Positions 7,749 to 55,577 of a stretch of DNA of 64,000 nt are shown one piece after another; position 1 is the first letter of the stretch, and each line of letters begins with the position of its first letter. The stretch comes from Clostridium sp. Its GTDB lineage: Bacteria > Bacillota_I > Bacilli_A > RF39 > UBA660. The DNA is taken from assembly GCA_023665725.1 (NCBI GenBank), contig JAMPDH010000003.1, forward strand, positions 5,484 through 69,483, given 5' to 3'. The position numbers and the translations under genes were made by a program. The notes beneath the pieces are model-generated. The model was not told the origin of the DNA and did not search any database. It saw nothing but the letters and a program-made list of their open reading frames with translations.

Positions 7749-7850
7749 TTATAACACCTCTAAAATATTATATGAATAAAATAAAAAAAGTTTTACAAAA
7801 TATAAAATTGTGTTATAATATTTTATAGAATAGGGATTGGAGTGTGCAAT

Positions 7851-9851
7851 ATGACAAATTTATTGTCAAAAATAGTCAACATAATAAAATATCCTTTCAT
7901 TGGACTTTTTTTTACATTATATATAATTGTGTATGTAATATACTTATTATTTAAATATCTTATACTAGGTATTATATTTATTATATATGCACCATTTAAA
8001 TTAATTTCAGGATTGCTTAAGCCCAAAGAAAACATACCAAAAACAAAACCAGAAAAAATAAGTTCAAGTAAAAGAAAGCAAGATGTAATAGAAATTCGTA
8101 ATCAAAAAAAATTACAAAAAATAGAGAAGCAACAACTTAGAAAACAACAAAAAGCTATGCTTTTTGAAAAGAAAAAACAAGAAAAGGAATTAGACAAGGT
8201 TAATCGTTTGACTAATGACCCTAAATTTGCTAAGAAACAAGCTGCAAAGGAAGCAAAAAAACAGGCTAAATTAGAAAAAGAAAATTTAATAAAACAAAAG
8301 TTATTAAACAAGGCAAAATCTGATATAAAGAAGGATGAAACCAGAGAAGAAAAAGCATTAAGATTGCTTCAAGAAAGAGAAGAAAAGAAAAAAGAAAAGG
8401 AACGTATTAGAAAGCTAAAAAAAGAAGCAAAACAAAAAGTTTTAGAAAAATCTAAACAAGATATTTTGGAAGATCCAAAACTTGCTAAGTATGCAGGCAA
8501 ACCATTTGGAAAATTAATTCAAAAAATATATACTTTGCCATTTGTAAGACGTGCTAGAAATAAAAGAGATATAAATAGACAAGCATTAATGCTTGAATTT
8601 GATAATAAATCAACTAAAAAAAATGAAACAAAGGTTGTATATATTTATGAAGCAAAGAATCCAGAAGGCAAAATTGTTAGAGAAAAATTTGCTGCATATT
8701 CCAAAGTAGAGGTACATTCATTTTTGCTTAGTGAAGGATATGAAGTATATAGTATAAAAACAAATCCTTTAATTCAAATATTATTTAAAGAAAACGCTAC
8801 TGTTAAATTTAAAACAAAAGATTTAATATTCTTTTTAACACAATTATCAACTTATATTAAAGCAGGTATTACTTTAGTAGAAGCATTAAAAGTATTATCT
8901 AGGCAATATAAACAAAGAAAGTACAAGGATATATTTAGAGGACTTATATATGATTTGTCTACAGGAGAAAGTTTTAGTAATGCCATGCTAAAACAAGAAA
9001 GTACATTTCCTAAGTTACTTATAAATATGGTTAAAGCGGCGGAACTTACAGGTGAGTTGACAGAAGCACTCGACGACATGGCAGATTATTATTCTGAGGT
9101 AAATAAAACAAGAAAACAAATGATTAATGCAATGACATATCCGGCTATTGTTCTATTTATATCTATTGCAGTTTTAACGTTTATAATGGTTTATGTTATT
9201 CCAAAATTTGTTGATATGTATGAAGCAATTGATCCAAGTAAAATACCTGGATTTACTATAGTAATAATGAATATAAGTAATTTCCTTCAAACTAATATTT
9301 TATATATTGGAATTATACTTGTTGTCGTTATTATTGCATTTATTTTATTATATAAAAAGGTTAAAGTATTTAGAACAACTATCCAATGGATATTAATGCA
9401 TATTCCTGTTATAGGAAATGTGATTATTTATAATGAAGTGTCAATGTTTACTAAGACATTTGCGTCATTACTTGCGCATAATGTATATATAACTGATAGT
9501 ATGGAAATATTACAAAAACTTACTAATAATGAAATATATCAATCAATTATTCTTGAAACAGTTACTAATTTAGCAAAAGGAGAAAAAATTTCATCTGCAT
9601 TTAAAGATCATTGGGCATTCCCAATTCCTGCATATGAAATGTTAGTAACTGGAGAAAGCACAGGTCAACTTGCAGAAATGATGCAAAAAGTATCTATATA
9701 TTATCAAGAATTACATAAGGATATTGTAACAAAGATTAAAACATTATTAGAGCCTGCATTAATCATAATATTAACTGTAATGGTTGGAATAATAGTTCTT
9801 TCAGTTGTAGTACCAATGTTTAGCTTATATAATGCAATACAAGAGATGTAA
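7851..9851 (+). CDS. pilC: Type IV pilus / T2SS platform protein PilC/GspF with a roughly 240-aa N-terminal extension (2 TM plus a Lys/Glu-rich low-complexity region).
   Basis: GGAG lies 9 nt upstream of the ATG at 7851. The GTG at 7842 has no RBS. The C-terminal 425 aa carry two T2SSF repeats (TFPKLLINMVKAAELTGEL..., LVTGESTGQLAEMMQKV) and three TM segments. An extended -10 (TGTTATAAT) sits at 7811-7819. Confidence 0.8.
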   Translation: MTNLLSKIVNIIKYPFIGLFFTLYIIVYVIYLLFKYLILGIIFIIYAPFKLISGLLKPKENIPKTKPEKISSSKRKQDVIEIRNQKKLQKIEKQQLRKQQKAMLFEKKKQEKELDKVNRLTNDPKFAKKQAAKEAKKQAKLEKENLIKQKLLNKAKSDIKKDETREEKALRLLQEREEKKKEKERIRKLKKEAKQKVLEKSKQDILEDPKLAKYAGKPFGKLIQKIYTLPFVRRARNKRDINRQALMLEFDNKSTKKNETKVVYIYEAKNPEGKIVREKFAAYSKVEVHSFLLSEGYEVYSIKTNPLIQILFKENATVKFKTKDLIFFLTQLSTYIKAGITLVEALKVLSRQYKQRKYKDIFRGLIYDLSTGESFSNAMLKQESTFPKLLINMVKAAELTGELTEALDDMADYYSEVNKTRKQMINAMTYPAIVLFISIAVLTFIMVYVIPKFVDMYEAIDPSKIPGFTIVIMNISNFLQTNILYIGIILVVVIIAFILLYKKVKVFRTTIQWILMHIPVIGNVIIYNEVSMFTKTFASLLAHNVYITDSMEILQKLTNNEIYQSIILETVTNLAKGEKISSAFKDHWAFPIPAYEMLVTGESTGQLAEMMQKVSIYYQELHKDIVTKIKTLLEPALIIILTVMVGIIVLSVVVPMFSLYNAIQEM

Positions 9852-9862
9852 GGAGTTATAAT

Positions 9863-10630
9863 ATGACTATATATTATTCAATTTGCTTTTTCATATTAGG
9901 GATGGTATTAGGATCATTTTATAATGTAGTTGGTTCTAGAATTCCTAATGGAGAATCAATATTATATCCAGGTTCCCATTGTACTAATTGTAATCATAAA
10001 TTAATGCCATGGGAACTTATTCCTGTTATTTCTTTTTTTCTTTTAAGAGGAAAATGCAGTAGTTGTAAGCAGAAAATATCATGGGTATATCCATTATTTG
10101 AATTATTTTCTGGATTATTATTTATGATAGCGTTTTTAATATTTGGACTTTCTTTAGAACTAATAATATCCTTAACTTTTATTTCACTTATTTTAATAAT
10201 TACAATAAGTGATTTTCAATATATGATAATACCTGATTCAATTATAATTTTTTTCTTTTTGTTAATTAGCGTTGAAATATTTTTTATTAGAGGATCTAAT
10301 TCATTATTATATGGTTTATTTAGCGCTTTAATATCATTTATAGTTATGTTTTTAATAAAAAAATTAGGTGATTTTCTATTTAAAAAAGAATCTATGGGCG
10401 GTGGAGATATTAAACTTCTTTCAATATTTGGACTTACATTAGGTTGGCCTATTGCATTGATATCTATATTTGTTGGAGCTTTAGTAGGATTACCAATTGC
10501 TTTAATTATATGTATAAAACACAATAATCATATTTTACCATTCGGTCCATTACTTGGAATAGGCGCAATAATACTACTTTTTACTAGAATAGATATAAAG
10601 CAAATATTAGATTTTTTTACAATATTTTAA
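9863..10630 (+). CDS. pilD: Prepilin peptidase (A24 family, PilD/ComC).
   Basis: N-terminal tetracysteine (CTNCNHKL...CSSCKQKI), a polytopic membrane domain and the GGGDIKL catalytic region. Confidence 0.85.
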   Translation: MTIYYSICFFILGMVLGSFYNVVGSRIPNGESILYPGSHCTNCNHKLMPWELIPVISFFLLRGKCSSCKQKISWVYPLFELFSGLLFMIAFLIFGLSLELIISLTFISLILIITISDFQYMIIPDSIIIFFFLLISVEIFFIRGSNSLLYGLFSALISFIVMFLIKKLGDFLFKKESMGGGDIKLLSIFGLTLGWPIALISIFVGALVGLPIALIICIKHNNHILPFGPLLGIGAIILLFTRIDIKQILDFFTIF

Positions 10631-10663
10631 AAAACTTTTCAAAATAAAATGAAAAGTTTTTTT
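10630..10663. terminator. Bidirectional intrinsic terminator between pilD(+) and lexA(-).
   Basis: An 11-bp stem (aaaaacttttc / gaaaagttttt) flanked by T-runs on both strands. Confidence 0.65.
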
Positions 10664-10667
10664 AATT

Positions 10668-11285
10668 TTATAATTTTCTATATAATCCTATTGCTTTTCC
10701 TAATACACTAACATTATCTAATATTATAGGACTCATTGTATCATTTTCTGGTTGTAATCTAAAATGATTATTTTCTTTGTAAAACCTTTTAAGTGTTACT
10801 TCATTTTCTTCTGTCATTGCAACAACAATATCTCCATTTTTAGCAGTGTTTTTTCTTTCTACAATAACAATATCATTATCATGTATACCCGCATTAATCA
10901 TACTAGTTCCACTTACTAGTAATGTAAATACTTCTTTGTTATTTGGAATTAGATAAGATGGTAATTGAAAGTATTCATTCGGTTTTTCTATTGCTTCTAT
11001 TGGAGTACCAGCTGTTATTTTGCCAAGTAGTGGAACTGAAACAACATTTTCGTTCTTTTCCTGAAATTCATTTTCTACAAGTAATTCAATAGCCCTATTT
11101 TTAGAACCATCTTTTCTTATAAAACCTTTATTAGAAAGATTATTTAAATGTGCATGAATAGTAGCAGGCGAAGAAACTCCTAAATCCTTACATATTTCTC
11201 TTATAGCCGGTGGATATCCATGAGATACTATAAATTTTTTTATATATGTAAGTATCTCGTCTTGTCTTTTAGTTAATTCTTTCAA
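10668..11285 (-). CDS. lexA: LexA repressor (SOS regulator, S24 peptidase).
   Basis: N-terminal winged HTH (LTKRQDEILTYIKKF...GYPPAIREICKDLGVSSPATIHAHL). The AG cleavage site is in LLGKITAGTPIEA. Catalytic Ser is in VSGTSM and Lys is in TLKRF. Confidence 0.9.
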   Translation of the reverse strand: MKELTKRQDEILTYIKKFIVSHGYPPAIREICKDLGVSSPATIHAHLNNLSNKGFIRKDGSKNRAIELLVENEFQEKNENVVSVPLLGKITAGTPIEAIEKPNEYFQLPSYLIPNNKEVFTLLVSGTSMINAGIHDNDIVIVERKNTAKNGDIVVAMTEENEVTLKRFYKENNHFRLQPENDTMSPIILDNVSVLGKAIGLYRKL

Positions 11286-11362
11286 ATTTAAACCTCCTTT
11301 ACGTACATTTACATTGTAACATATCTTTTTTTAAAAGTCAAACATTTGTTTGATAAAATTAT

Positions 11363-11391
11363 TGACACGAACAATTGTTCATGATAAACTT
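11363..11391. promoter_or_regulatory. Divergent promoter region with a Cheo/SOS box (GAACAATTGTTC at 11369..11380) inside a plus-strand sigma-A promoter (TTGACA, 17 nt, TAAACT).
   Basis: The perfect palindrome CGAACAATTGTTC matches the Firmicutes LexA operator consensus GAAC-N4-GTTC. It lies 84 nt upstream of the lexA start (minus strand) and 33 nt upstream of the small plus-strand ORF. Confidence 0.7.
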
Positions 11392-11412
11392 TAATTAATG
11401 GAGGTAATGATT

Positions 11413-11553
11413 ATGAAAGAAATGTTAAGAAGTAAAGGAATACTATTATTTATAGTTGCATTTATTGGAGTTACATATATTAATGCAATAGGTACAGTTA
11501 GAATAGAAAATAGTAATTATAGTAATAATTATATTGACGAAAATATTAGATAG
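11413..11553 (+). CDS. 46-aa single-TM peptide transcribed divergently from lexA, downstream of the SOS box. Candidate SOS-induced cell-division inhibitor analogous to YneA/SosA.
   Basis: GGAGGT RBS 7 nt before the ATG. The product is MKEMLRSKGILLFIVAFIGVTYINAIGTVRIENSNYSNNYIDENIR. A plausible terminator (aaatatt...aatattttttt) follows. It is absent from the ORF track because it is under 60 aa. Confidence 0.4.
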   Translation: MKEMLRSKGILLFIVAFIGVTYINAIGTVRIENSNYSNNYIDENIR

Positions 11554-11600
11554 AGTGTTATTTAATATTTTTTTGTATAAGAAAAAGTGTATTAAACACT

Positions 11601-12899
11601 TTATAAATCCCAATCTAAATCTAAATCTAAATTATCATCTAATTTTTCATTATGAGAAATATTAGTAAAATCTATTGCAGTTTTTAAATCATATTGTGAA
11701 TCTTTAGATTCTTCATCATCTTCTAGTTCGATAAGTTTTAAAATTTCCTCAATAGTGGTTTCTCCTTCTACAACTTTTTCAAGTCCATCTTGCAAAAGGG
11801 TTATAACATCAGATTGATAAACTAACTCTCTTAATTTTTCTTTTGGTAGATTTGCAGATAGGGCATCTTTGATTTTTTGATCAATCATTAATATTTCATG
11901 TATAGCAACTCTTCCATGGTATCCGTTTCCACATTCTTCACATCCAACAGGACTATATATATAATCAACATTTTTTCCTAAAACTTTCATAAGTAAATTT
12001 TTTTCATATGTATTTGTAGGACGTTTTTCTCTACAATTTTTGCATAATTTACGAGCTAAATTTTGAGATATAATTCCTGTTAATGCACTTGCAAGTAAGT
12101 ATCTTTCAACTTCCATATCTAATAAACGCTCAATAGTATTAAGTGAGTTATTAGTATGCAATGTAGATAATACTAAATGTCCAGTTATAGAAGCTCTTAC
12201 AGCAATTTTTGCAGTTTCAGTGTCACGAATTTCTCCAATCATTATTATATTAGGGTCTTGACGAAGTATAGAACGTAGTGCTGTTGCAAAATCTAATCCG
12301 ATTTCACTATTTGTTTGAATCTGATTAATTCCTTCTATATCCATTTCTATCGGATCTTCAACCGTTATTATATTTGTTTGTTCTTTGTTTAGTCTTTGAA
12401 GAATAGAGTAAACTGTTGTAGATTTTCCTGTTCCAGTAGCACCTGTAACTAATATTATTCCATTAGGAACTTCTATCATTTTTAAAACTTTTTTGTAATT
12501 TTGTTCACTAAAACCTAAAGATTCAAGTCCTGCTAAACTCATGGAATAGTCTAATATACGAATAACTACTTTTTCTCCTTCACTTGTAGGAATTGATGAA
12601 ACACGAAGATCCAAATTTAAATCTTGTAAGGTTGTTTTAATCGCACCATCTTGAGGTAAACGAGACTCAGTTATATTCATACCACTTATTATCTTTATAC
12701 GAGTAATAAGATTTTTTTTAATGCTATTAGGTATAATGCAGTAATCTATCAAAGCACCATCTATTCTAATTCTTACTTTCATATGCTCAGTTAATGGATC
12801 AAAATGTATATCACTTGCTTCACGTTTTGCAGAGTCAACTAATATTTCATTTACTATCTCCACAACTGGCATTTTATCAAAATCAAATACTTTTATCAC
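11601..12899 (-). CDS. pilB: Type IV pilus assembly ATPase of the PilB/GspE type. Short form, 432 aa, lacking the N-terminal GSPII domains.
   Basis: GTG start with a GGAGAG RBS. Walker A (GATGTGKSTT), Asp/His boxes, and the C-terminal tetracysteine CKNC...CEEC typical of GspE/PilB and absent from PilT. The acidic DLDLDWDL tail is unusual. Confidence 0.85.
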   Translation of the reverse strand: MIKVFDFDKMPVVEIVNEILVDSAKREASDIHFDPLTEHMKVRIRIDGALIDYCIIPNSIKKNLITRIKIISGMNITESRLPQDGAIKTTLQDLNLDLRVSSIPTSEGEKVVIRILDYSMSLAGLESLGFSEQNYKKVLKMIEVPNGIILVTGATGTGKSTTVYSILQRLNKEQTNIITVEDPIEMDIEGINQIQTNSEIGLDFATALRSILRQDPNIIMIGEIRDTETAKIAVRASITGHLVLSTLHTNNSLNTIERLLDMEVERYLLASALTGIISQNLARKLCKNCREKRPTNTYEKNLLMKVLGKNVDYIYSPVGCEECGNGYHGRVAIHEILMIDQKIKDALSANLPKEKLRELVYQSDVITLLQDGLEKVVEGETTIEEILKLIELEDDEESKDSQYDLKTAIDFTNISHNEKLDDNLDLDLDWDL

Positions 12900-12996
12900 A
12901 AAATTCTCTCCTTTTATTCTTTTTTAGGACTAGTATTTATCCTTGATTTATTATATAATATAATCGTAATAATATCAAGATAAAGGGGAAAATTTT

Positions 12997-14088
12997 ATGA
13001 AAAAAAACGAAAAAGGCTTTATATTAACTGAAGTTTTGATAATATCTGCTATAGTTTTAGGGGTATTAGTATTTATGTATGCACAATTTAGAAATATAAA
13101 TGTTAGTTTTAGGCAAACATATAGATATAATACAGTAGAAGGAATATATAAAGCCAATGAAATAAAAAAATTTATAGAATCTGATGCTATTAATAGTATG
13201 ATATCACTACTTAATGATGAAAATAAAACTTATATAGATATAACTGAATGTGATGTATCTACATATAATAATCCGAGTTTTTGTAAAATATTGTATGAAA
13301 AATTAGGAATTAAATCTGTATTATTATTGAATGAAGATGTTACTAGTTTAGTTAATTCGGGTATGGATAACTTAGATAATGGTACTAAGAATTTTATTAA
13401 ATATGTTGGAAAAAACTATACAGGTAATTATTATAGGATTATTGCTGTATTTGATGATGATACATATTCAACAGTTAGAATTGACATATTAAAGGATAGA
13501 TATGATTTTACTTATAATGAAGATATGTATACATTTGTAGTTCCAGCAAATGGTTATTATCAAATAGAATTATGGGGCGCGAGTGGAAGTCAGGATATTA
13601 ATACTACGGCTAGAGGAGCATATACAAGAGGTACCATATATTTGGAAAAAGATACTAAATTATACATATATGTCGGAGTCCAAGGGGATAATTCTATACA
13701 TCGTGGAGAGGATTATATAAGTAATCTAGGTGGGTATCAAGTAACAAATAATAATGAATTAATTGGCGGAGAAGAAACAGATATACGTCTAGTAAAAGGT
13801 AATCCATTAAACTTTGATAGTTTAAAATCTAGAATAATGGTTGCTGATGGTGGAACAGGATCTTCATTTATATCAGGTTATGATGGTTGCGACGCATTAA
13901 GTGAATCATCAACTATTGATAATGTAATCAATACAGGAAAATCAATTCATTACAGTGGTTATAAATTTGAAAATGCTATCATGATTGCTGGAAATAAGGA
14001 AATACCAAGTTATAATAATGGTTTCACAACTGGCAATATAGGTAATGGATATGCTAGGATTACTGTGATGTCAATAGAAGGAGTGTAG
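12997..14088 (+). CDS. Type IV pilin-like protein (class III signal peptide) with a C-terminal glycine-rich domain (ALK/LTK-type Gly_rich fold).
   Basis: AAGGGG RBS. The leader MKKNEKG|FILTEVLI carries G-1, F+1 and E+5. The C-terminal YTFVVPANGYYQIELWGASGS...ARGAYTRG...LYIYVGVQG...GGEETDIRL...MVADGGTG matches the glycine-rich domain signature. Confidence 0.7.
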   Translation: MKKNEKGFILTEVLIISAIVLGVLVFMYAQFRNINVSFRQTYRYNTVEGIYKANEIKKFIESDAINSMISLLNDENKTYIDITECDVSTYNNPSFCKILYEKLGIKSVLLLNEDVTSLVNSGMDNLDNGTKNFIKYVGKNYTGNYYRIIAVFDDDTYSTVRIDILKDRYDFTYNEDMYTFVVPANGYYQIELWGASGSQDINTTARGAYTRGTIYLEKDTKLYIYVGVQGDNSIHRGEDYISNLGGYQVTNNNELIGGEETDIRLVKGNPLNFDSLKSRIMVADGGTGSSFISGYDGCDALSESSTIDNVINTGKSIHYSGYKFENAIMIAGNKEIPSYNNGFTTGNIGNGYARITVMSIEGV

Positions 14089-14090
14089 TT

Positions 14091-15209
14091 ATGAAAAAGA
14101 ATGCTTTTACTATAGTAGAATTAATAGTTTCACTAAGTATAACTTTAGTTGTAATGATTATACTCTATGAAATTATAATTTTACTTAAAGACACATTTCA
14201 ATCATCTAGTTTAAAAACAGAAATTTTAAATAAGGAGTCTATATTAATTGATAATATGTATTCCGATTTTAATAATAATTCTGTTTCTTCAATTATACAA
14301 TGTGGTGACTATTGTTTAGATTTTACAATGACTAATGCAAATACAAAACGTTTACAAATTGACAAAGAAAACTTAACAATTTCTTATGGAGATTATATTA
14401 TAAAATTAAAAGACACTTATAGTATAGGAAATATATATTTTTCAAATGATTCTATTGCTTCATATGATAACAACAATAATTCTATTTTAGCTATAAAAAT
14501 ACCAATATATTCTAAAGTAAGTGGAAACGAGGATTTAGGAATAAAAATTGCATTTTCTTATAATAGTAGGCAAGTTTCCATAGGTCCAATTTATATAGTT
14601 GATAATACAAACGATTGTAGTGATAACACATTTTGTAAAGACAGTAAATATAATATAGGTGACAAGGTTAAATTAGCCGGATTTAATTGGCATATTATAG
14701 AAGATAATGAATCTACTATTACACTTTTACTTGATACAAGTGAAATACCTAACAGAAGTCATGTTACTCAAACAATGACATCATACAATTGGTCTACATC
14801 ATATATAAATGACTATTTAAATAATAATTTTTATAATTTATTAAAAATAAATGGTTTAAATTTGGATTATATAATAACATCTAAAACAGGAATATGTGAT
14901 GATAAAACTTTAAGTGGTGGTAATCCTGGAAGTCTTTCAACAGAAGGAACTACTTGTAATTCAAACTATATATATTCTAACGTAAGAATGATGTCAGTAG
15001 ATGAATTCCAAAAATTAAAAAATTATTTAACCGAAAATAATATAAATTCTGAATTTTTATATTCTTCTACTGCTGGTAAATGGGCTTTGATTAATGGAGT
15101 TAAAGATAAAAATAATATAGTTCAAATTGATGAAAATGGAAATACAATTGAAGATAACTACTCATCACTTCTAAATGTGAGAGCTGTAATTGAGATAAGA
15201 AAAAAATAA
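14091..15209 (+). CDS. Pseudopilin-like protein with a prepilin-type N-terminus and a C-terminal DUF6273-like domain.
   Basis: GAAGGAG RBS overlapping the upstream stop. The leader MKKNA|FTIVELIV has F+1 and E+5. The C-terminal VKLAGFNWHIIEDNESTITLLLD...MMSVDEFQKL...LLNVRAVIEI has the same architecture as the 775..2073 product. Confidence 0.65.
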   Translation: MKKNAFTIVELIVSLSITLVVMIILYEIIILLKDTFQSSSLKTEILNKESILIDNMYSDFNNNSVSSIIQCGDYCLDFTMTNANTKRLQIDKENLTISYGDYIIKLKDTYSIGNIYFSNDSIASYDNNNNSILAIKIPIYSKVSGNEDLGIKIAFSYNSRQVSIGPIYIVDNTNDCSDNTFCKDSKYNIGDKVKLAGFNWHIIEDNESTITLLLDTSEIPNRSHVTQTMTSYNWSTSYINDYLNNNFYNLLKINGLNLDYIITSKTGICDDKTLSGGNPGSLSTEGTTCNSNYIYSNVRMMSVDEFQKLKNYLTENNINSEFLYSSTAGKWALINGVKDKNNIVQIDENGNTIEDNYSSLLNVRAVIEIRKK

Positions 15210-26166: not shown

Positions 26167-27102
26167 ATGATGTATGAGGAAGAAATAGATATTTATGATG
26201 ACAATGAAATTTTTGAAGATTTGTTTTTAAATGAAGATAATAATCAAAATTATGATTGTTTTATAAGTGATGCTACTCGTTCATATTTAAAACAAATCGG
26301 CAAATATAAAAAATTAAATGATGAAGAAGAAAAAATATTAATGAAGAGATTAAAAAATGGAGATAAAAAAGCATATGATAAATTTGTAAAACATAATTTA
26401 AAACTTGTTGTTAATACTGCAAAAGATTATAGAGGATATAATGTTCCATTCATAGATATCATATTATATGGGAATGAAGGGCTTTATGAGGCAATTAATA
26501 GATATGATATTTCAAAAGGATGTAAGTTTTCAACATATGCAGTACCTTGTATTAAAACAAAAATAATAAGAGGAATTCGTGAAAACCTTAGATTGATTAT
26601 ACCTTCATTTCATATATCAGAAGAAATTAATAAATATTTAAAAATATACTCTTATTTATTAATTAAATTAGAACATGAACCTACAATAGAAGAAATGGCT
26701 TCAGAGTTAAATATTTCAATTGAAGAAGCATTGTTATTAGAACACTTATCAAAAGATGATATAAGTATAAATCAACAGTTTGAAGATAATGATAAACTTG
26801 AGCTTGGAGATTTAATTATTGATGAAACCGTAAATGTAGAAGAAAAAGTAACTTCAGATATTTATTTTGCTAAAATAATAAATTTCATAAATGATAATTT
26901 GAATGAAAAAGAAATAGATATTATAAAAAAGAGATTTGGATTTGATAATAAAATTCCTATGTCATATGACGAAATTGGTAAAATATATGGTGTTAGTCGT
27001 GAAAGAATAAGGGTAATAGTAAATAATATTTTTAAAAAACTTAGAAATTCTAAAGAATTTCAAAAAATTTCTGGATATAATCAAAAAAGTTACAAAAAAT
27101 AA
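26167..27102 (+). CDS. Sigma-70 family RNA polymerase sigma factor, a divergent 311-aa paralog.
   Basis: GAGGTGA RBS. Region 2 (HNLKLVVNTAKDYRGYNVPFIDIILYGNEGLYEAINRYD, CKFSTYAVPCIKTKIIRGIR), region 3 and region 4 (YDEIGKIYGVSRERIRVIVNNIFKKLR). Confidence 0.75.
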   Translation: MMYEEEIDIYDDNEIFEDLFLNEDNNQNYDCFISDATRSYLKQIGKYKKLNDEEEKILMKRLKNGDKKAYDKFVKHNLKLVVNTAKDYRGYNVPFIDIILYGNEGLYEAINRYDISKGCKFSTYAVPCIKTKIIRGIRENLRLIIPSFHISEEINKYLKIYSYLLIKLEHEPTIEEMASELNISIEEALLLEHLSKDDISINQQFEDNDKLELGDLIIDETVNVEEKVTSDIYFAKIINFINDNLNEKEIDIIKKRFGFDNKIPMSYDEIGKIYGVSRERIRVIVNNIFKKLRNSKEFQKISGYNQKSYKK

Positions 27103-30849: not shown

Positions 30850-31692
30850 ATGAGGATTGATGATATTAATTCAGAAAGTGAATATATAAGGGAAATTAAT
30901 AAAATAGAACTACTTTCTGAAAAAGAGGAAATGTATCTTTTTAAAATAAGAAGTAAAGAAGCAAAACAAAAGCTTATTGAAAGCAATTTAAGATTGGTTG
31001 TAAGCATTGCCAAAAATTATACTGATAGAGGTATTCCATTTTTGGATTTAGTTCAAGAAGGAAATCTCGGATTAATTAGAGCAGTAGAATTATTTGACTG
31101 TAGATATGGTAACAAGTTTTCCACATATGCAACTCCATGCATTAAATATACAATAAAAAGAGCAATCGCTACTAAAGAAAATTCAATAAAATTTCCTGCC
31201 AACATAGCTAGTAAATTATATAAAATAAATTATATTGAAGCAACATTAACAGAGAAATTGAATAGGGTGCCAACTGTCGAAGAAATATCAAAAGAAATAA
31301 ATATACCATTATTACAATTTAAAGAAATTTATAAATCATTAAAGCAACAAATAATAAGCATAGATTGTCCTATAGGAGAAGATGAAGATTCAACATTACT
31401 AGATTTAATTAAAGATGAAAGCAATATAGATTTAGATGAATATGTAGCAAATATAGAGATTAAAGAAGCTATTTTTAACGCTTTACAAACATTGACAAAA
31501 AAAGAGCAACTTATAATTAAGCTTTACTTTGGATTTGATGGATTATCTAGAATGAATATACCAAAGATAGCAAAAACACTTAATTGCTCTGAAACTGATA
31601 TTATTAATGCCTATAAAAAAGCTATTTATAAACTAAAAGATGAACTCGGTTATTTACAAGATCAAGATAAAAAAGAATATAAAATTATATAG
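30850..31692 (+). CDS. Sigma-70 family sigma factor. A SigA-like paralog, 280 aa, with no region 1.1.
   Basis: An extended -10 (TGCTATAAT) and AAGGGG RBS upstream. Region 2 is nearly identical in pattern to SigA ([56 protein letters not shown]). Region 4 is [11 protein letters not shown]...IAKTL. Confidence 0.75.
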
Positions 31693-34847: not shown

Positions 34848-35477
34848 TTATTTAATAAATGGGATTATTATTTTTATAAGTAATGGTGTTATAAATGTTT
34901 CTATTAATATGGATATTATTATTACAATTGTAGATACTATTAATACTTTAATATATTTATTCATCATTATTTTAAAATCAATCTGCTTTTTATTTATAAC
35001 TGCGCTTATGATTTTTAAAGAAAAGAATAATGCATATGTAGTTAATATCATATATATAACAAAATTCAATATTTGATGTGGAAATATATTTGCAAAGCTC
35101 AGTAAACAACCTTTTAATTTATAATTAAATATTATACTTGATATCGAAAAACCTAAAGTAAAACTTTTTATAAAAAACATTATAATTACTATTGGAAATC
35201 CAATAACTGATATTCCTAATATCCATATTAATATTATATATAATAAATTATTAAATAATCCGTTTTTTAAAGCTTCAAAATAATTAAGTTTATTTATTTC
35301 TATATTAGTTAGAAAAGAATTAAAATATTCTGTTATTAAATTTTTATCGGTTTCATTTAATATAGCCATAAAAATAGACCCAGATATTATTCCTATAACT
35401 AATAAAATAGTGAAAAAAAACATTGTTTTTTTATTTATTATAATTAAACTTTTATACTTGTCCAACCATTTCTTCAT
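34848..35477 (-). CDS. spoIIM: Stage II sporulation protein M (SpoIIM, DUF95 family).
   Basis: Five TM segments. The conserved LIWILGISVIGFPIVIIMFFIKSF block matches the SpoIIM LGLMWILGISVIGMPII motif. Confidence 0.6.
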   Translation of the reverse strand: MKKWLDKYKSLIIINKKTMFFFTILLVIGIISGSIFMAILNETDKNLITEYFNSFLTNIEINKLNYFEALKNGLFNNLLYIILIWILGISVIGFPIVIIMFFIKSFTLGFSISSIIFNYKLKGCLLSFANIFPHQILNFVIYMILTTYALFFSLKIISAVINKKQIDFKIMMNKYIKVLIVSTIVIIISILIETFITPLLIKIIIPFIK

Positions 35478-35715: not shown

Positions 35716-36408
35716 ATGAAGGTTATAAAAAATATTATACTTATACTTTTTTTAGTAGGATTAGGTATAGTTTTATATTATGGTATAAATGGTTATAATC
35801 TTTATAAAAAATTAATAACAGAAACTCCTTTAGAAGAAAAGATAAAATCTATTAGAGATAATAAAAATTATACAAAATTAGAGGATATTTCACCTGATTT
35901 TATAAATGCAGTTATTGCTGTTGAGGATCATAGATTTTATTCACATAGTGGTATAGATATAATTTCTACTATTAAAGCAATTTTTATAAATGTAAAAGAG
36001 GCTTCATATGTAACAGGAGGAAGCACTATAACTCAACAACTTGCTAAAAACATGTATTTTTCACAAGAGAAAAAGATGCTTAGAAAAGTTGCTGAAATGT
36101 TTATGACTTATGAATTGGAAGATGTATTGGATAAAGATGAAATTTTAGAGTTATATGTAAATACAATTTATTATGGAAGTGGTTATTATAATGTAAGATC
36201 TGCAAGTCTTGGTTATTTTAGTAAAGAACCAAGTGAACTAACTTTAGATGAAGCTTCTCTTTTGGCTGGTATCCCAAATGCGCCTTCTGTATATTCACTT
36301 GATGTCAATCCTGACCTAGCTTATCAAAGACAAAAACAAGTAATAAGTGCTATGAAGGAATACGATTATATAAATGATTTAGAATATAAAGAATTAATAA
36401 AAAAATAA
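35716..36408 (+). CDS. mtgA: Monofunctional biosynthetic peptidoglycan transglycosylase (GT51).
   Basis: AAGGAGG RBS. N-terminal TM. GT51 motifs AVIAVEDHRFYSHSGID, GGSTITQQLAKN and RKVAEM. Confidence 0.8.
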   Translation: MKVIKNIILILFLVGLGIVLYYGINGYNLYKKLITETPLEEKIKSIRDNKNYTKLEDISPDFINAVIAVEDHRFYSHSGIDIISTIKAIFINVKEASYVTGGSTITQQLAKNMYFSQEKKMLRKVAEMFMTYELEDVLDKDEILELYVNTIYYGSGYYNVRSASLGYFSKEPSELTLDEASLLAGIPNAPSVYSLDVNPDLAYQRQKQVISAMKEYDYINDLEYKELIKK

Positions 36409-36982: not shown

Positions 36983-37978
36983 TTAGTTCTCTGCTTCTTC
37001 TAACATATTTGTTATGAAAATTCCATAACCTTTTGTTGGTTCTTCAATTATAACATGAGTTACTGCTCCTACTATAAAATCACCTTGTATTATAGGTGAA
37101 CCACTCATTCCTTGTATAATACCACCTGTTTTTTCTATAAGTTTTTCATCAGTAATTTCAAAAAGTATATTTTTTGTATCATTAGAGGTTTGATTTATTT
37201 TTTTTATTTCTATATTATATTCTCCTATTTCATTATCGTCTAATACAGTTAATATACTTGCGTCTCCAATTTTTATATCATCTATGTTAGCAACTTTATA
37301 TAACTTTTTTTCAGGTATCTCATCAGTATAGTTGCCAAAAATTCCATGTGTAGTATTTTCATTTATTGTTCCTTTAATAGATTTAGTATCTAGTTTAGCA
37401 TTCTTTTCTCCAGGATTTCCAGACGTACTTTCTTTAACTCCTGTAACAGTAGATTTAAATATTGTGCCATCTGATGAATCTAATATTTTATTAGTATTTT
37501 TTTCTATTATTTCATGCCCTAAAGCGCCAAATAATTTAGTATTTGGATCTATAAATGTAAGTGTTCCAATTCCTGTAATACTATCTTTTATATACATTCC
37601 TGTTTTATATTCATTATCGGTTTTATATAATTTTAAATTAGTATACTTCTGCATATCATTTCTTACATAGCCAATTTTTATATTTTCATCATTACATGTA
37701 GATATTTTAGAAGATAAATCATATACAGTGGAAACTTTATCATCATTAATACTATTAATTAAGTCTCCAACTTGAAGACCTGCCTCTTTTGCTGGAATAG
37801 TATTATCAATAGAATACATACCAACTATCATAACACCTTTTGAATTTAGCTTTATCCCAACATTTTCCCCACCTACTATTAGATAATCTGAATAACCTAA
37901 TACTTTAGAAGGAATAATAAGAAGTGTTAGAAGAATTAAAAAAGTTTTTAAAGACTTTTTTTTAATCATTTTAAACAT
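36983..37978 (-). CDS. spoIVB: SpoIVB peptidase (S55) with a PDZ domain.
   Basis: Signal anchor. PDZ region (GDLINSINDDKV). S55 motifs GIGTLTFIDP, GALGHEI and GMSGSPIIQGDFIVGAVTHV. A terminator hairpin at 36967..36984 overlaps the stop. Confidence 0.8.
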   Translation of the reverse strand: MFKMIKKKSLKTFLILLTLLIIPSKVLGYSDYLIVGGENVGIKLNSKGVMIVGMYSIDNTIPAKEAGLQVGDLINSINDDKVSTVYDLSSKISTCNDENIKIGYVRNDMQKYTNLKLYKTDNEYKTGMYIKDSITGIGTLTFIDPNTKLFGALGHEIIEKNTNKILDSSDGTIFKSTVTGVKESTSGNPGEKNAKLDTKSIKGTINENTTHGIFGNYTDEIPEKKLYKVANIDDIKIGDASILTVLDDNEIGEYNIEIKKINQTSNDTKNILFEITDEKLIEKTGGIIQGMSGSPIIQGDFIVGAVTHVIIEEPTKGYGIFITNMLEEAEN

Positions 37979-54556: not shown

Positions 54557-54568
54557 AATCCTGCTTTT
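54547..54568. terminator. Bidirectional terminator (agcaggat-aaaa-tcctgct).
   Basis: A perfect 7-8-bp GC-containing stem flanked by T-runs on both strands. It sits between convergent genes. Confidence 0.65.
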
Positions 54569-55577
54569 ATATTGATCTTAATTTATTTATAACATTTTCA
54601 AATGTATCTGCTTCTACAATAGTTATATTATAATTATTTTCTCTTACTAAATTAATTACTTCATCATAATTTTCACCAGTTGGAACTATAAATATATCAG
54701 CTCCATTTTTAACCGCGCCTTTTAACTTATATTTTACCCCACCAATACTACCAACTGTACCATCTAAATTAATTGTCCCTGTACCTACTATATTTCTCCC
54801 CCTAGCAATATCCTCTTCTGTTAAATAATCATAGATCGCTATCGTTAACATCAACCCTCCAGATGGTCCAGTTTCGGAGGCATCATAATTAAATGTAAGT
54901 AATGGATTAGTATCCACTTCATATATTTCGCTAACTATTATCCCTATAACTGCCCTATTATTTAATTCCTTTAATGTTGATATAACATTATACTCCTTAT
55001 TATTTCTTTTAACTGTTATTGTTACTTTATCTCCTACACTATATCTATCTAATATTTTATATAAGTCATCTTTATTTTGTATTTTTTCATTTTCTACTTT
55101 TAATATTTCATCTCCAACTTTTAATTCAGTATCAGAATCTATATCTACATAAGTTATATAAACTTTAGTATCTTTAATAGTTACTTGTCCTTTTGCATAA
55201 TTATAAGCAACTATTGTAGCATTATTAACCGATTCTTTAAGCATTATATCACTTCTAAATATTGCTTGTTCTAGTGTTTCATTATCGTATTTTGTATCAT
55301 CAATATTAATAATATCATAATCTTTATTTATAAGTGAATATAAATAGATTGGTATTGTTGCCCTATATTCACTTACATAGGATAAATTTATACTACCATT
55401 AATTTTATTTGAATTTTCTATAGTTATTTTATCATTTACATTTATAAGTCCACCAGGAGCATCTATATAAAAAGGCAATTTAATTATAGAAATTAAAAAT
55501 ATAATAATAAGAGTTATTAAAAATTTTCTATTTTCTTTTATATAATTTTTAATTTTTTCATAAAATTTAGTAATCAT
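54567..55577 (-). CDS. YlbL/SepM-family protein: N-terminal TM, PDZ domain and Lon-protease (S16) C-terminal domain.
   Basis: DAPGGLINV..., PDZ region (VGDEILKVENEKI), and S16 motifs GPSGGLMLTIAIYD and GTGTINLDGTVGSIGGVKYK. Confidence 0.75.
   Translation of the reverse strand: MITKFYEKIKNYIKENRKFLITLIIIFLISIIKLPFYIDAPGGLINVNDKITIENSNKINGSINLSYVSEYRATIPIYLYSLINKDYDIINIDDTKYDNETLEQAIFRSDIMLKESVNNATIVAYNYAKGQVTIKDTKVYITYVDIDSDTELKVGDEILKVENEKIQNKDDLYKILDRYSVGDKVTITVKRNNKEYNVISTLKELNNRAVIGIIVSEIYEVDTNPLLTFNYDASETGPSGGLMLTIAIYDYLTEEDIARGRNIVGTGTINLDGTVGSIGGVKYKLKGAVKNGADIFIVPTGENYDEVINLVRENNYNITIVEADTFENVINKLRSI

What the first reader, a model, noticed from the sequence alone, without database searches (positions are those of the whole stretch)
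11286..11600. Perfect Cheo-type SOS box in a divergent promoter shared by lexA and an unannotated 46-aa membrane peptide
CGAACAATTGTTC (11368..11380) matches the Gram-positive LexA operator consensus and is a perfect palindrome. It lies inside the spacer of a plus-strand TTGACA-17-TAAACT promoter. Thirty-three nt downstream is a GGAGGT-preceded ATG encoding a 46-aa single-TM peptide (11413..11553) with a short extracellular tail and its own terminator. The arrangement mirrors B. subtilis lexA-yneA and S. aureus lexA-sosA, where a small membrane protein transcribed divergently from lexA halts cell division during the SOS response. The peptide is below the 60-aa ORF cutoff and would be missed by standard annotation. 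It would be a very small SOS division-inhibitor candidate.
Basis: partly seen in the sequence, partly recalled or inferred. Interest (0 to 1): 0.6.

Follow-up and report, generated by a model that had tools for sequence, protein, structure and literature searches.

The report
LexA-repressed 46-aa membrane peptide gene
Next to the DNA-damage repressor gene lexA sits a real, conserved gene for a 46-residue membrane peptide whose promoter carries a LexA binding site; it is most likely this gut bacterium's version of the small "stop dividing while DNA is repaired" proteins known from Bacillus (YneA) and Staphylococcus (SosA), but from a new, unnamed sequence family.

Summary
The sequence features are all present at the stated coordinates. 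CGAACAATTGTTCA (11368-11381) fills the spacer of a TTGACA-17-TGnTAAACT promoter. GGAGG and ATG 11413 then open a 46-aa ORF with one transmembrane segment, cytoplasmic N-terminus and external C-tail.

Eighty related lexA loci settle that the gene is real. Sixty-seven carry a 33-54 aa peptide of the same design, dN/dS is about 0.2-0.3, and the promoter-embedded box occurs only where the peptide occurs (64+2 versus 0 of 13).

It overlaps lexA's own -35 and is found in all 80 loci. So there are two back-to-back promoters, each with its own operator, not one shared box.

In relatives the order is lexA | peptide | tkt | sirA, which is the slot yneA occupies in B. subtilis. The peptide has no LysM domain and matches no Pfam or NCBIfam family. 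About 130 clusters at 50% identity exist, all small and all "hypothetical".

Corrections: the gene is annotated in GenBank (NC181_01155), and the "terminator" is a hairpin with no U-tract.

Function as an SOS division inhibitor is inferred, not shown (about 0.6). Verdict: new member of a known kind, moderate interest.

The parts
10668..11285 (-). lexA (205 aa, TTG start), the SOS repressor. It has an N-terminal winged-helix DNA-binding domain and an S24 self-cleaving domain, with Ala92-Gly93, Ser128 and Lys166.
   Evidence: Pfam PF01726 plus PF00717. NCBIfam TIGR00498 equivalog, 226 bits against cutoff 111. Motif positions.
11293..11297 (-). Shine-Dalgarno sequence of lexA (GGAGG on the minus strand), 7 nt before the TTG start.
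   Evidence: Read from the sequence.
11313..11341 (-). lexA promoter: -35 TTGACT (11341-11336), 17-nt spacer, TG-extended -10 TACAAT (11318-11313).
   Evidence: Promoter scan, 10 of 12 matches with TG. GTCAA (the TTGAC complement) and TGTTAnnAT are conserved in the 80 loci.
11339..11352 (.). Box 1: the weaker LexA operator CAAACATTTGTTTG, overlapping the lexA -35. It is inferred to be the lexA autoregulation site. The G-to-A change at box position 2 is forced by the overlap with TTGAC.
   Evidence: Top weight-matrix hit in the window, 20.1 bits. The CAAA[C/T] left half is present in all 80 related loci.
11362..11390 (+). Peptide-gene promoter: -35 TTGACA (11362-11367), 17-nt spacer, TG (11382-11383), -10 TAAACT (11385-11390).
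   Evidence: The same architecture recurs in relatives: TTGACA with the box starting at offset 6 in 51 of 58, a 17-nt spacer in 50 of 58, and a TG extension in 37 of 58.
11368..11381 (.). Box 2: near-consensus LexA operator CGAACAATTGTTCA, occupying 14 of the 17 spacer positions of the peptide promoter.
   Evidence: The only GAAC-N4-GTTC in the window. 18.9 bits. Matches the CGAACN4GTTCG consensus of B. subtilis and S. aureus (PMC9578287, Table 1). Co-occurs strictly with the peptide gene.
11400..11404 (+). Shine-Dalgarno GGAGG, 8 nt before ATG 11413.
11413..11553 (+). Small ORF of 46 aa: MKEMLRSKGILLFIVAFIGVTYINAIGTVRIENSNYSNNYIDENIR. It has a cytoplasmic N-terminus of about 8 aa (net charge +2), a TM helix at about residues 9-26, and a polar external tail of about 20 aa.
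   Evidence: ORF list. Exact match to NCBI protein NC181_01155. 67 positional homologues. dN/dS about 0.2-0.3. Charge asymmetry. AF2 gives a single helix with block-mean pLDDT 94 and 88 for residues 11-20 and 21-30.
11550..11604 (+). Two-tier stem-loop that begins at the stop codon and overlaps the stop of the convergent ATPase gene. It is not a canonical terminator on the plus strand because there is no U-tract. The inner hairpin at 11584-11602 is followed by U-rich sequence on the minus strand.
   Evidence: RNA folds. Terminator scan found none.

Best explanation
This is a genuine LexA-repressed gene for a 46-residue bitopic membrane peptide. It is the positional counterpart of B. subtilis yneA and S. 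aureus sosA in an uncultured, very AT-rich (24% G+C) gut Firmicute. It most likely acts as the SOS cell-division checkpoint effector.

Proposed mechanism, with the basis for each step:

1. Without DNA damage, LexA dimers sit on two operators in a back-to-back divergent promoter pair. Box 1 overlaps the -35 of lexA and mediates autoregulation. Box 2 fills the -35/-10 spacer of the peptide promoter and excludes RNA polymerase. The motifs, positions and conservation are shown here. Binding is inferred.
2. Box 2 is closer to the consensus than box 1, so the peptide should be repressed more tightly and induced later than lexA. This is inferred.
3. After DNA damage, RecA-stimulated LexA self-cleavage frees the promoter. 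The cleavage site and the catalytic Ser and Lys are present. A short leader of about 15-20 nt with a strong Shine-Dalgarno sequence gives rapid translation. This is inferred.
4. The peptide inserts with its N-terminus inside and its C-terminus outside. This is predicted from the charge asymmetry (N-terminus more positive than the tail in 50 of 59 members) and from the confident helix in the structure model.
5. By analogy with YneA, SidA and SosA, the TM helix docks onto the septal peptidoglycan synthase (FtsW-PBP complex). The external tail of about 22 residues then blocks septal wall synthesis until repair is complete. The tail has conserved hydrophobic and acid/amide positions at residues 31, 32, 41 and 44. 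This step is inferred.
6. Extracytoplasmic PDZ proteases then clear the peptide. A PDZ plus Lon_C protease of the YlbL/DdcP type is encoded at 54567-55577. This step is speculative.
For: - **Real gene.** 59 of 80 related lexA loci have a 42-54 aa ORF at the same place with a Shine-Dalgarno sequence and ATG. A re-scan adds 8 more, giving 67 of 80. In 28 close pairs pooled pS is 0.53 and pN is 0.21, with dN/dS mostly 0.17-0.4. Profile searches find 99 clusters at 90% identity and 130 representatives at 50% identity. All are 34-87 aa.
- **LexA control.** Box 2 matches CGAACN4GTTCG. It sits at a fixed offset inside the promoter spacer in 51 of 58 loci.
- **Box 2 belongs to the peptide gene.** The box-bearing promoter is found in 64 peptide-positive loci, plus 2 with a variant -35, and in none of 13 peptide-negative loci. 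Fisher p = 4e-13, though the loci are not phylogenetically independent. Box 1 is present in all 80 loci.
- **Same genomic slot as yneA.** Four independent peptide-based look-ups beyond the window's own contig (P0065, P0036, P0038, P0037) all land next to lexA. Transketolase follows on the same strand in about 30 loci, and SirA follows that in L088.
- **Class definition from the literature.** Gram-positive SOS division inhibitors share little sequence, are co-localised with lexA, and have one TM segment and an extracellular C-terminus. SosA lacks a LysM domain and has a conserved membrane-proximal segment (PMC6851548).
- **Likely target.** The YneA TM domain binds FtsW TM7, and several SOS inhibitors are predicted to target FtsW (PMC13396833).
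- **The organism has a Gram-positive wall.** The window encodes a peptidoglycan glycosyltransferase (35716-36408), a sulfatase-family protein that I read as LtaS-like (58438-60393), SpoIIM and SpoIVB. Relatives encode sortase and CHAP/CW_7 proteins.
Against: - There is no experimental evidence of any kind. All genomes are metagenome-assembled, and LexA binding, damage induction and a division phenotype are untested.
- There is no detectable sequence similarity to any characterised inhibitor. None of the 59 peptide sequences scanned matched an NCBIfam YneA model or the Pfam LysM domain at E <= 10.
- YneA needs its LysM domain and SosA needs most of its roughly 47-aa ectodomain. Here the ectodomain is only about 22 aa, and three relatives have tail-less forms of 33-34 aa. 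The mode of action may therefore differ.
- In most relatives no terminator separates the peptide gene from tkt or polA (7 of 50). The promoter may therefore also serve downstream genes.
- No other strong LexA box occurs in the 64-kb window, so the operator model could not be cross-checked on canonical SOS genes.
- FtsW was not seen in the window.
Confidence: 0.6

Rival explanations
1. It is an SOS-induced small membrane toxin of the TisB/DinQ kind. On this view the peptide does not target the divisome. It depolarises or perturbs the membrane to induce dormancy or persistence after DNA damage.
For: It is LexA-controlled, very small, mostly a TM helix, and has no recognisable domain. E. coli has LexA-regulated single-TM peptides with this role (DinQ: PMC3567139; TisB: PMC11575346; both listed). 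Tail-less variants of 33-34 aa exist.
Against: No antitoxin RNA is evident. Rfam finds nothing in 11200-11700. The lexA and peptide transcripts do not overlap. In most relatives the next gene follows within 40-66 nt, which leaves no room for a convergent antisense gene. The TM segment is uniformly hydrophobic and has no charged face. The external tail has conserved positions. The fixed position beside lexA matches the YneA/SosA class.
Confidence: 0.12
2. It is a LexA-regulated small membrane protein with another envelope role, such as a modulator of a transporter, protease or wall enzyme. Alternatively it is mainly the first cistron or leader of an SOS-inducible operon that continues into tkt or polA.
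For: Only 7 of 50 relatives have a terminator before the next same-strand gene. That next gene is often the DNA-repair polymerase polA (L059, L065, L068, L072). Many small bacterial membrane proteins are regulators of larger membrane proteins (general knowledge).
Against: The peptide is kept under purifying selection whatever lies downstream: tkt, polA, a glycosyltransferase, or a convergent gene as in this window and in L025, L035, L051 and L052. A pure leader peptide would not keep a TM topology and conserved tail positions across about 130 clusters.
Confidence: 0.2
3. The ORF is spurious, and the box serves only lexA autoregulation.
For: A single GAAC-N4-GTTC is not significant in 64 kb. 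Short ORFs are common.
Against: The ORF is conserved in 67 of 80 loci despite extensive nucleotide divergence, and dN/dS is well below 1. In the 58 peptide-bearing loci with a recognisable promoter, box 2 sits inside a near-invariant strong promoter that points away from lexA. Box 2 disappears whenever the ORF is absent, while lexA keeps box 1.
Confidence: 0.02

Closest known systems
YneA (Bacillus subtilis, Listeria): SOS-induced division inhibitor
   Same: It is divergent from lexA and under a CGAAC-N4-GTTCG operator. It has an N-terminal TM segment with the C-terminus outside. It occupies the same chromosomal slot: relatives show lexA | peptide | tkt | sirA, against B. subtilis lexA | yneA yneB ynzC | tkt | sirA (the B. 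subtilis order is from my own knowledge and was not retrieved here). The likely targets are late divisome proteins and FtsW (PMC13396833).
   Different: YneA is about 100 aa and needs a peptidoglycan-binding LysM domain (PMC13396833). This peptide is 46 aa with no LysM domain, and no YneA model matched. No yneB or ynzC genes follow it.
SosA (Staphylococcus): SOS-induced division inhibitor
   Same: It is divergent from lexA, has a TM segment near the N-terminus (residues 10-30), an extracellular C-terminus and no LysM domain. It has a conserved membrane-proximal segment and some conservation at the extreme C-terminus (PMC6851548). The family here shows a similar pattern at positions 31/32 and 41/44.
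   Different: SosA is 77 aa with an ectodomain of about 47 aa; here the ectodomain is about 22 aa. No sequence similarity was detected. None of the 130 profile hits has the length and alignment position expected of SosA. SosA is restricted to staphylococci.
SidA (Caulobacter crescentus): 29-aa SOS-induced membrane inhibitor acting on FtsW
   Same: It is a minimal single-TM peptide with essentially no extra domain, it is SOS-induced, and it acts late in division on FtsW (PMC9578287; PMC6851548).
   Different: It comes from an alphaproteobacterium with a different LexA box (GTTCN7GTTC). It was not tested here for similarity. The 29-aa size is from my own knowledge.
TisB and DinQ (E. coli): LexA-regulated type I toxins
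   Same: They are LexA-controlled membrane peptides of under 50 aa.
   Different: Those have antisense-RNA antitoxins and act by membrane depolarisation. No antisense partner is evident here, and none would fit in most relatives.

Membership tests
Functional class: SOS-regulated small membrane division inhibitors encoded beside lexA (YneA, SosA, DivS, ChiZ) | The gene is adjacent to lexA and transcribed divergently from it. | tested here: met
   The window has lexA at 10668-11285 (minus) and the peptide at 11413-11553 (plus). The same arrangement is seen in 67 of 80 related loci and in all 4 look-ups that started from other family members; a fifth look-up, P0001, re-found the window's own contig.
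Functional class: SOS-regulated small membrane division inhibitors encoded beside lexA (YneA, SosA, DivS, ChiZ) | A LexA operator lies in the gene's own promoter. | tested here: met
   CGAACAATTGTTCA lies inside the -35/-10 spacer. The position is conserved and co-occurs strictly with the gene. Physical binding was not tested.
Functional class: SOS-regulated small membrane division inhibitors encoded beside lexA (YneA, SosA, DivS, ChiZ) | A single TM segment with an extracellular C-terminus. | tested here: met
   This is a prediction only. There is one hydrophobic stretch of 15-20 residues. The N-terminus carries net +2 and the tail net -0.8, with N more positive than C in 50 of 59 members. 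AF2 gives a confident helix. No PhoA/LacZ topology data exist.
Functional class: SOS-regulated small membrane division inhibitors encoded beside lexA (YneA, SosA, DivS, ChiZ) | The gene is induced by DNA damage, and its expression blocks septation. | not testable with these tools
   This needs expression and microscopy experiments. All hosts are uncultured MAG lineages.
YneA family | A C-terminal LysM peptidoglycan-binding domain, and a match to a YneA model. | tested here: not met
   None of the 59 peptide sequences scanned hit LysM or any YneA model, even at E <= 10. None of the 130 profile hits is longer than 87 aa.
YneA family | Position in the lexA - X - tkt - sirA neighbourhood. | tested here: met
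   Met in relatives: tkt (TIGR00232, 736 bits against cutoff 682) follows the peptide, and SirA (PF10747) follows tkt. In this window the neighbourhood is rearranged, with a pilus ATPase gene convergent on the peptide gene. The B. subtilis order is recalled from memory and was not retrieved.
SosA family | Sequence homology to the 77-aa staphylococcal SosA. | tested here: inconclusive
   No SosA sequence was available for a direct comparison. A profile search of 1.84 billion representatives returned only proteins of 34-87 aa. The longer hits align through N-terminal extensions rather than SosA-like C-terminal domains.
Type I toxin-antitoxin (TisB/IstR, DinQ/AgrB) | A cis- or trans-encoded antisense RNA antitoxin overlaps the toxin mRNA. 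| tested here: not met
   Rfam finds no hit. There is no overlap with the lexA transcript. The downstream gap is 40-66 nt in most relatives. The absence of an unknown sRNA cannot be proven from sequence.

The most novel reading that the evidence does not exclude
The family may be a minimal, domain-less Gram-positive SOS checkpoint peptide of 42-54 aa, with 33-aa tail-less variants. It may have arisen in the yneA slot, perhaps from a YneA-like ancestor by loss of the LysM domain. On this reading it blocks the FtsW-PBP septal synthase with only a TM helix and an external tail of about 20 residues. The conserved C-terminal h-x-h-N motif would double as a degron for PDZ proteases of the DdcP or CtpA type. 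That would show that the LysM or large ectodomain of YneA and SosA is dispensable for this checkpoint. It would also supply a natural library of about 130 divergent mini-inhibitors of a SEDS polymerase.
Probability: 0.35. Interest if true: 0.6.

Novelty: new member of a known kind. Interest (0 to 1): 0.42.

Why it matters
If the inference is right, it extends the lexA-linked small-membrane-inhibitor checkpoint to a large, uncultured, genome-reduced group of gut Bacilli. Public records label these MAGs Bacilli, Tenericutes or Clostridium sp. Nothing is known about their cell-cycle control.

It would also define a previously unnamed peptide family of about 130 clusters at 50% identity, all annotated "hypothetical".

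The family is much smaller than YneA or SosA. It would therefore help define the minimum needed to inhibit the septal peptidoglycan synthase, which is a question of current interest (PMC13396833). It would also give compact peptide scaffolds against FtsW-type SEDS polymerases.

The locus is also a clean example of two back-to-back promoters with operators of different strength, which predicts graded SOS timing.

It does not reveal a new kind of system.

Tried and rejected
- **Over-strict box search.** A strict GAAC-N4-GTTC search in the 80 related upstream regions hit only 6 loci and at first suggested the box was not conserved. Reading the sequences showed the box is conserved but usually carries one mismatch (GAAT, GAAA or GTTT), so the strict pattern was dropped in favour of a 10-position score and a weight matrix.
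- **Family scans.** Pfam and NCBIfam scans of 59 members at E <= 10 gave only scattered chance hits to TM-rich families. There was no YneA, LysM, Fst, TisB or Hok-type hit.
- **RNA.** An Rfam scan of 11200-11700 found nothing.
- **Terminator.** The consensus scan was negative. The folded hairpin lacks a U-tract. My own scan of the gaps in relatives was mostly negative.
- **Structure.** The AF2 monomer is one long helix with a low-confidence tail and gives no information on function, so no fold search was run.
- **Literature.** Searches for the B. subtilis yneA-yneB-ynzC-tkt order found no usable paper, so that order is cited from memory.
- **Other LexA boxes.** None of convincing strength was found elsewhere in the window.
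- **Readings considered and rejected.** I rejected the spurious-ORF reading, the reading that box 2 serves only lexA, and an association with the neighbouring pilus genes. The pilus neighbourhood is unique to this genome, whereas the link to lexA is general.
Full report
**1. What is in the sequence**

- -35 TTGACA lies at 11362-11367.
- The box CGAACAATTGTTC lies at 11368-11380. The 14-mer is CGAACAATTGTTCA, extending to 11381.
- TG lies at 11382-11383 and -10 TAAACT at 11385-11390, which makes a 17-nt spacer with an extended -10.
- GGAGG lies at 11400-11404 and ATG at 11413, 33 nt after the box.
- The ORF is 46 codons and ends at TAG 11551-11553.
- Two in-frame upstream ATGs (11398, 11407) lie before or too close to the Shine-Dalgarno sequence. 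Homologues begin at the MKEML position.

The divergent gene at 10668-11285 (minus strand) is lexA. It has Pfam LexA_DNA_bind and Peptidase_S24 domains. It matches the NCBIfam equivalog TIGR00498 at 226 bits against a cutoff of 111. The Ala92-Gly93 cleavage site, Ser128 and Lys166 are all present.

A single exact GAAC-N4-GTTC in 64 kb is not significant by itself. The expectation is 0.29, and 26 of 100 shuffles have at least one. The context is what makes it meaningful.

**2.

lexA has its own promoter on the minus strand. The -35 TTGACT is at 11341-11336, and the TG-extended -10 TACAAT is at 11318-11313.

A second, degenerate operator, CAAACATTTGTTTG (11339-11352), overlaps that -35. I built a weight matrix from the orthologous sites of the other genomes. 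With it, the two best hits in the whole window are box 1 (20.1 bits) and box 2 (18.9 bits). The next best hit scores 9.9, and the best score in 20 shuffles is 17.2.

Box 1 cannot be a perfect Cheo box. Its first three bases, CAA, are the complement of the TTG of the lexA -35. This forces an A at box position 2, and that A is invariant in all 80 relatives.

So the region is not one shared box. It is a back-to-back promoter pair, with a weaker operator on lexA and a near-consensus operator inside the spacer of the peptide promoter. The consensus CGAACN4GTTCG for B. subtilis and S. aureus is taken from PMC9578287, Table 1.

**3. Comparative evidence**

A scan of species-representative genomes with the LexA protein returned 80 loci. 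Their LexA proteins are 62-81% identical to the window's. All come from uncultured gut MAGs labelled Bacilli, Tenericutes, Firmicutes and the like.

My first strict search for GAAC-N4-GTTC found it in only 6 loci. Reading the sequences showed this was an artefact of the pattern, because the box usually has one mismatch.

The architecture is close to invariant among the 58 peptide-bearing loci with a recognisable promoter:

- TTGACA with the box beginning immediately after it: 51 of 58.
- A 17-nt spacer: 50 of 58.
- A TG-extended -10: 37 of 58.
- A distance of 20-30 nt from the -10 to the ATG, with a Shine-Dalgarno sequence.

Box 1 and box 2 lie 28-29 bp apart in 38 loci, 35-39 bp apart in 15, and 45-47 bp apart in 3.

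Fifty-nine of the 80 loci have a 42-54 aa single-TM ORF at this position. A re-scan added five full-length genes and three variants of 33-34 aa. In L028 and L029 a 62-aa soluble ORF sits between the promoter and the peptide gene. The total is 67 of 80, and one further locus is cut by the contig end.

The box-in-promoter and the peptide co-occur strictly. Sixty-four loci have both, and two peptide loci have a box behind a variant -35. Thirteen loci have neither, and none has the box without the peptide. Fisher p = 4e-13, with the caveat that related genomes are not independent. All 80 loci keep box 1.

**4. It is a protein-coding gene under selection**

Across 28 close pairs, pooled pS is 0.53 and pN is 0.21. 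dN/dS is mostly 0.17-0.4.

The family design is constant:

- A basic N-terminus of about 8 residues, such as M-K-x-h-L-K. L5 is hydrophobic in 97% of members and position 6 is K or R in 83%. The net charge is +2.
- A TM stretch of about 18 residues.
- A tail of about 22 residues that is rich in N, E and S and has a net charge of -0.8.
- Within the tail, a conserved hydrophobic position (31, 88%) followed by an acid or amide (32, 85%).
- Near the C-terminus, a V or I (41, 98% hydrophobic) and an Asn (44, 57%).

AF2 with an 84-sequence alignment gives a single helix. It is confident (block-mean pLDDT 94 and 88) over residues 11-30 and weak in the tail.

**5. Extent, names and source**

The window peptide is identical to NCBI protein NC181_01155, "hypothetical protein", from MAG GCA_023666545.1, contig JAMPBU010000003.1, labelled Clostridium sp.. 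It is therefore annotated, contrary to the finding.

A profile search finds 99 clusters at 90% identity. It finds 130 representatives at 50% identity among 1.84 billion proteins. All are 34-87 aa, none has a Pfam domain, and the few that carry a source name are called "hypothetical protein" (one is labelled PsiE). None of the 59 sequences scanned matches any Pfam or NCBIfam model meaningfully, and none matches LysM or YneA.

Four look-ups that started from other family members (P0065, P0036, P0038, P0037) all landed next to lexA; a fifth, with P0001, re-found the window's own contig.

**6. Genomic slot**

In the window the peptide gene is followed 47 nt later by the stop of a convergent type II/IV secretion ATPase gene. 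lexA itself sits inside a type IV pilus-like cluster. That neighbourhood is unique to this genome.

In relatives the gene after the peptide is on the same strand in 51 of 59 loci. Most often it is transketolase, confirmed by TIGR00232 at 736 bits against a cutoff of 682. Otherwise it is polA or a glycosyltransferase.

L088 reads lexA | peptide | tkt | sirA. From my own knowledge of the B. subtilis 168 map, which I could not retrieve here, the order there is lexA | yneA yneB ynzC | tkt | sirA(yneE). On that basis the peptide occupies the yneA slot.

The SosA paper states that synteny with lexA, one TM segment and an extracellular C-terminus are the shared features of Gram-positive SOS division inhibitors that are otherwise dissimilar. 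It also states that SosA (77 aa) lacks a LysM domain and has a conserved membrane-proximal segment (PMC6851548).

**7. Terminator**

The consensus scan finds none. A two-tier hairpin at 11550-11604 is more stable than shuffled sequence (-14.8 kcal/mol, z = -3.25), but no U-tract follows it on the plus strand. On the minus strand its inner stem is followed by U-rich sequence, which suits termination of the ATPase gene.

In relatives only 7 of 50 gaps contain a terminator-like hairpin. Read-through into tkt or polA is therefore likely in those genomes.

**8. Mechanism**

Shown from sequence and comparison:
- operator positions that would occlude RNA polymerase at both promoters;
- a self-cleaving LexA;
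- a translated, selected peptide predicted to sit with its N-terminus inside and its C-terminus outside.

Inferred:
- LexA binding and derepression after damage;
- tighter control of the peptide than of lexA, because box 2 is closer to the consensus;
- docking of the TM helix to the septal synthase, with the tail interfering in septal peptidoglycan synthesis.

The last inference rests on three analogies. The YneA TM domain binds FtsW TM7 (PMC13396833). SidA acts on FtsW (PMC9578287). SosA is a late-stage inhibitor that depends on its ectodomain (PMC6851548).

The organism has the required Gram-positive envelope. The window encodes a peptidoglycan glycosyltransferase, a sulfatase-family protein that I read as LtaS-like, SpoIIM and SpoIVB.

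Clearance by extracytoplasmic PDZ proteases is speculative. [quoted passage not shown] A protein with that architecture is encoded at 54567-55577.

**9. Rivals**

- A TisB/DinQ-like SOS toxin cannot be excluded (0.12). No antisense partner is evident, and there is no room for one in most relatives.
- A different envelope role, or a role as the first cistron of an SOS operon, is possible (0.2). The peptide is nevertheless conserved whatever lies downstream.
- A spurious ORF is effectively excluded.

**10. Verdict**

The box is not shared. The gene is annotated. There is no canonical terminator. SidA is smaller, so this is not the smallest known inhibitor.

This is a new, unnamed sequence family within a known kind of system. 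Interest is moderate.

Caveats: all data come from MAGs. The loci were chosen by LexA similarity and are phylogenetically related. The weight matrix was built from orthologous sites. The B. subtilis gene order and the SidA size are from memory.

Noticed in passing
window 7842-15209: In this genome lexA and the peptide gene are embedded in a type IV pilus or pseudopilus cluster. The cluster has a T2SSF platform protein (7842-9851) with a Lys-rich N-terminal extension of about 300 aa. It also has a prepilin peptidase (9863-10630) and a convergent T2SSE ATPase (11601-12899, minus strand). Two pilin-like proteins follow, one with an ALK/LTK glycine-rich domain (12997-14088) and one with an N_methyl motif (14091-15209). 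Relatives have lexA|peptide|tkt instead, so this is a lineage-specific rearrangement.
   Followed up: partly
window 54567-55577 (-): This is a 336-aa protein with PDZ and Lon_C domains. Its best NCBIfam hit is SepM_fam_S16, below the cutoff. It has the same architecture as B. subtilis YlbL/DdcP, one of the two proteases that degrade YneA. It is a candidate clearance protease for the peptide.
   Followed up: partly
window 26167-27102, 30850-31692, 34848-35477, 36983-37978: There are two extra sigma-70-family factors, SpoIIM and a SpoIVB peptidase. Relatives carry SirA next to tkt (L088). This lineage, which public records label Tenericutes, Bacilli or Clostridium sp., appears to keep sporulation genes. 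The window is 24% G+C.
   Followed up: no
L028 and L029, upstream of lexA (about 140-460 nt from the lexA start): A 62-aa soluble ORF (MEYYTINDIQILTGY...) lies between the LexA-box promoter and the peptide gene. This makes a two-gene SOS operon in these two genomes.
   Followed up: no
L055, L070, L071: These loci have shorter variants of 33-34 aa that end soon after the TM segment and lack the polar tail. They may be truncated or decaying copies, or evidence that the tail is dispensable.
   Followed up: no
L023, L026, L027, L033, L044, L048, L053, L063, L069, L073, L075, L076, L080: These thirteen lexA loci lack both the peptide gene and box 2 but keep box 1. L026, L044 and L075 share an unrelated ORF beside lexA that is open for at least 178-183 aa to the end of the region examined (MS.A.L.Y...SLRQIDN.TRLY...) and has a box-less promoter.
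   Followed up: partly
related loci L001-L080, lexA-peptide intergenic region: The centre-to-centre spacing of the two LexA boxes falls into classes of 28-29 bp (38 loci), 35-39 bp (15 loci) and 45-47 bp (3 loci). The steps are roughly one helical turn. This may reflect a constraint on the relative phasing of the two operators or promoters.
   Followed up: partly
related loci, gap between the peptide gene and the next same-strand gene: Only 7 of 50 gaps (mostly 40-66 nt) contain a terminator-like hairpin. The LexA-controlled promoter may therefore read through into tkt, or into polA in L059, L065, L068 and L072.
   Followed up: partly
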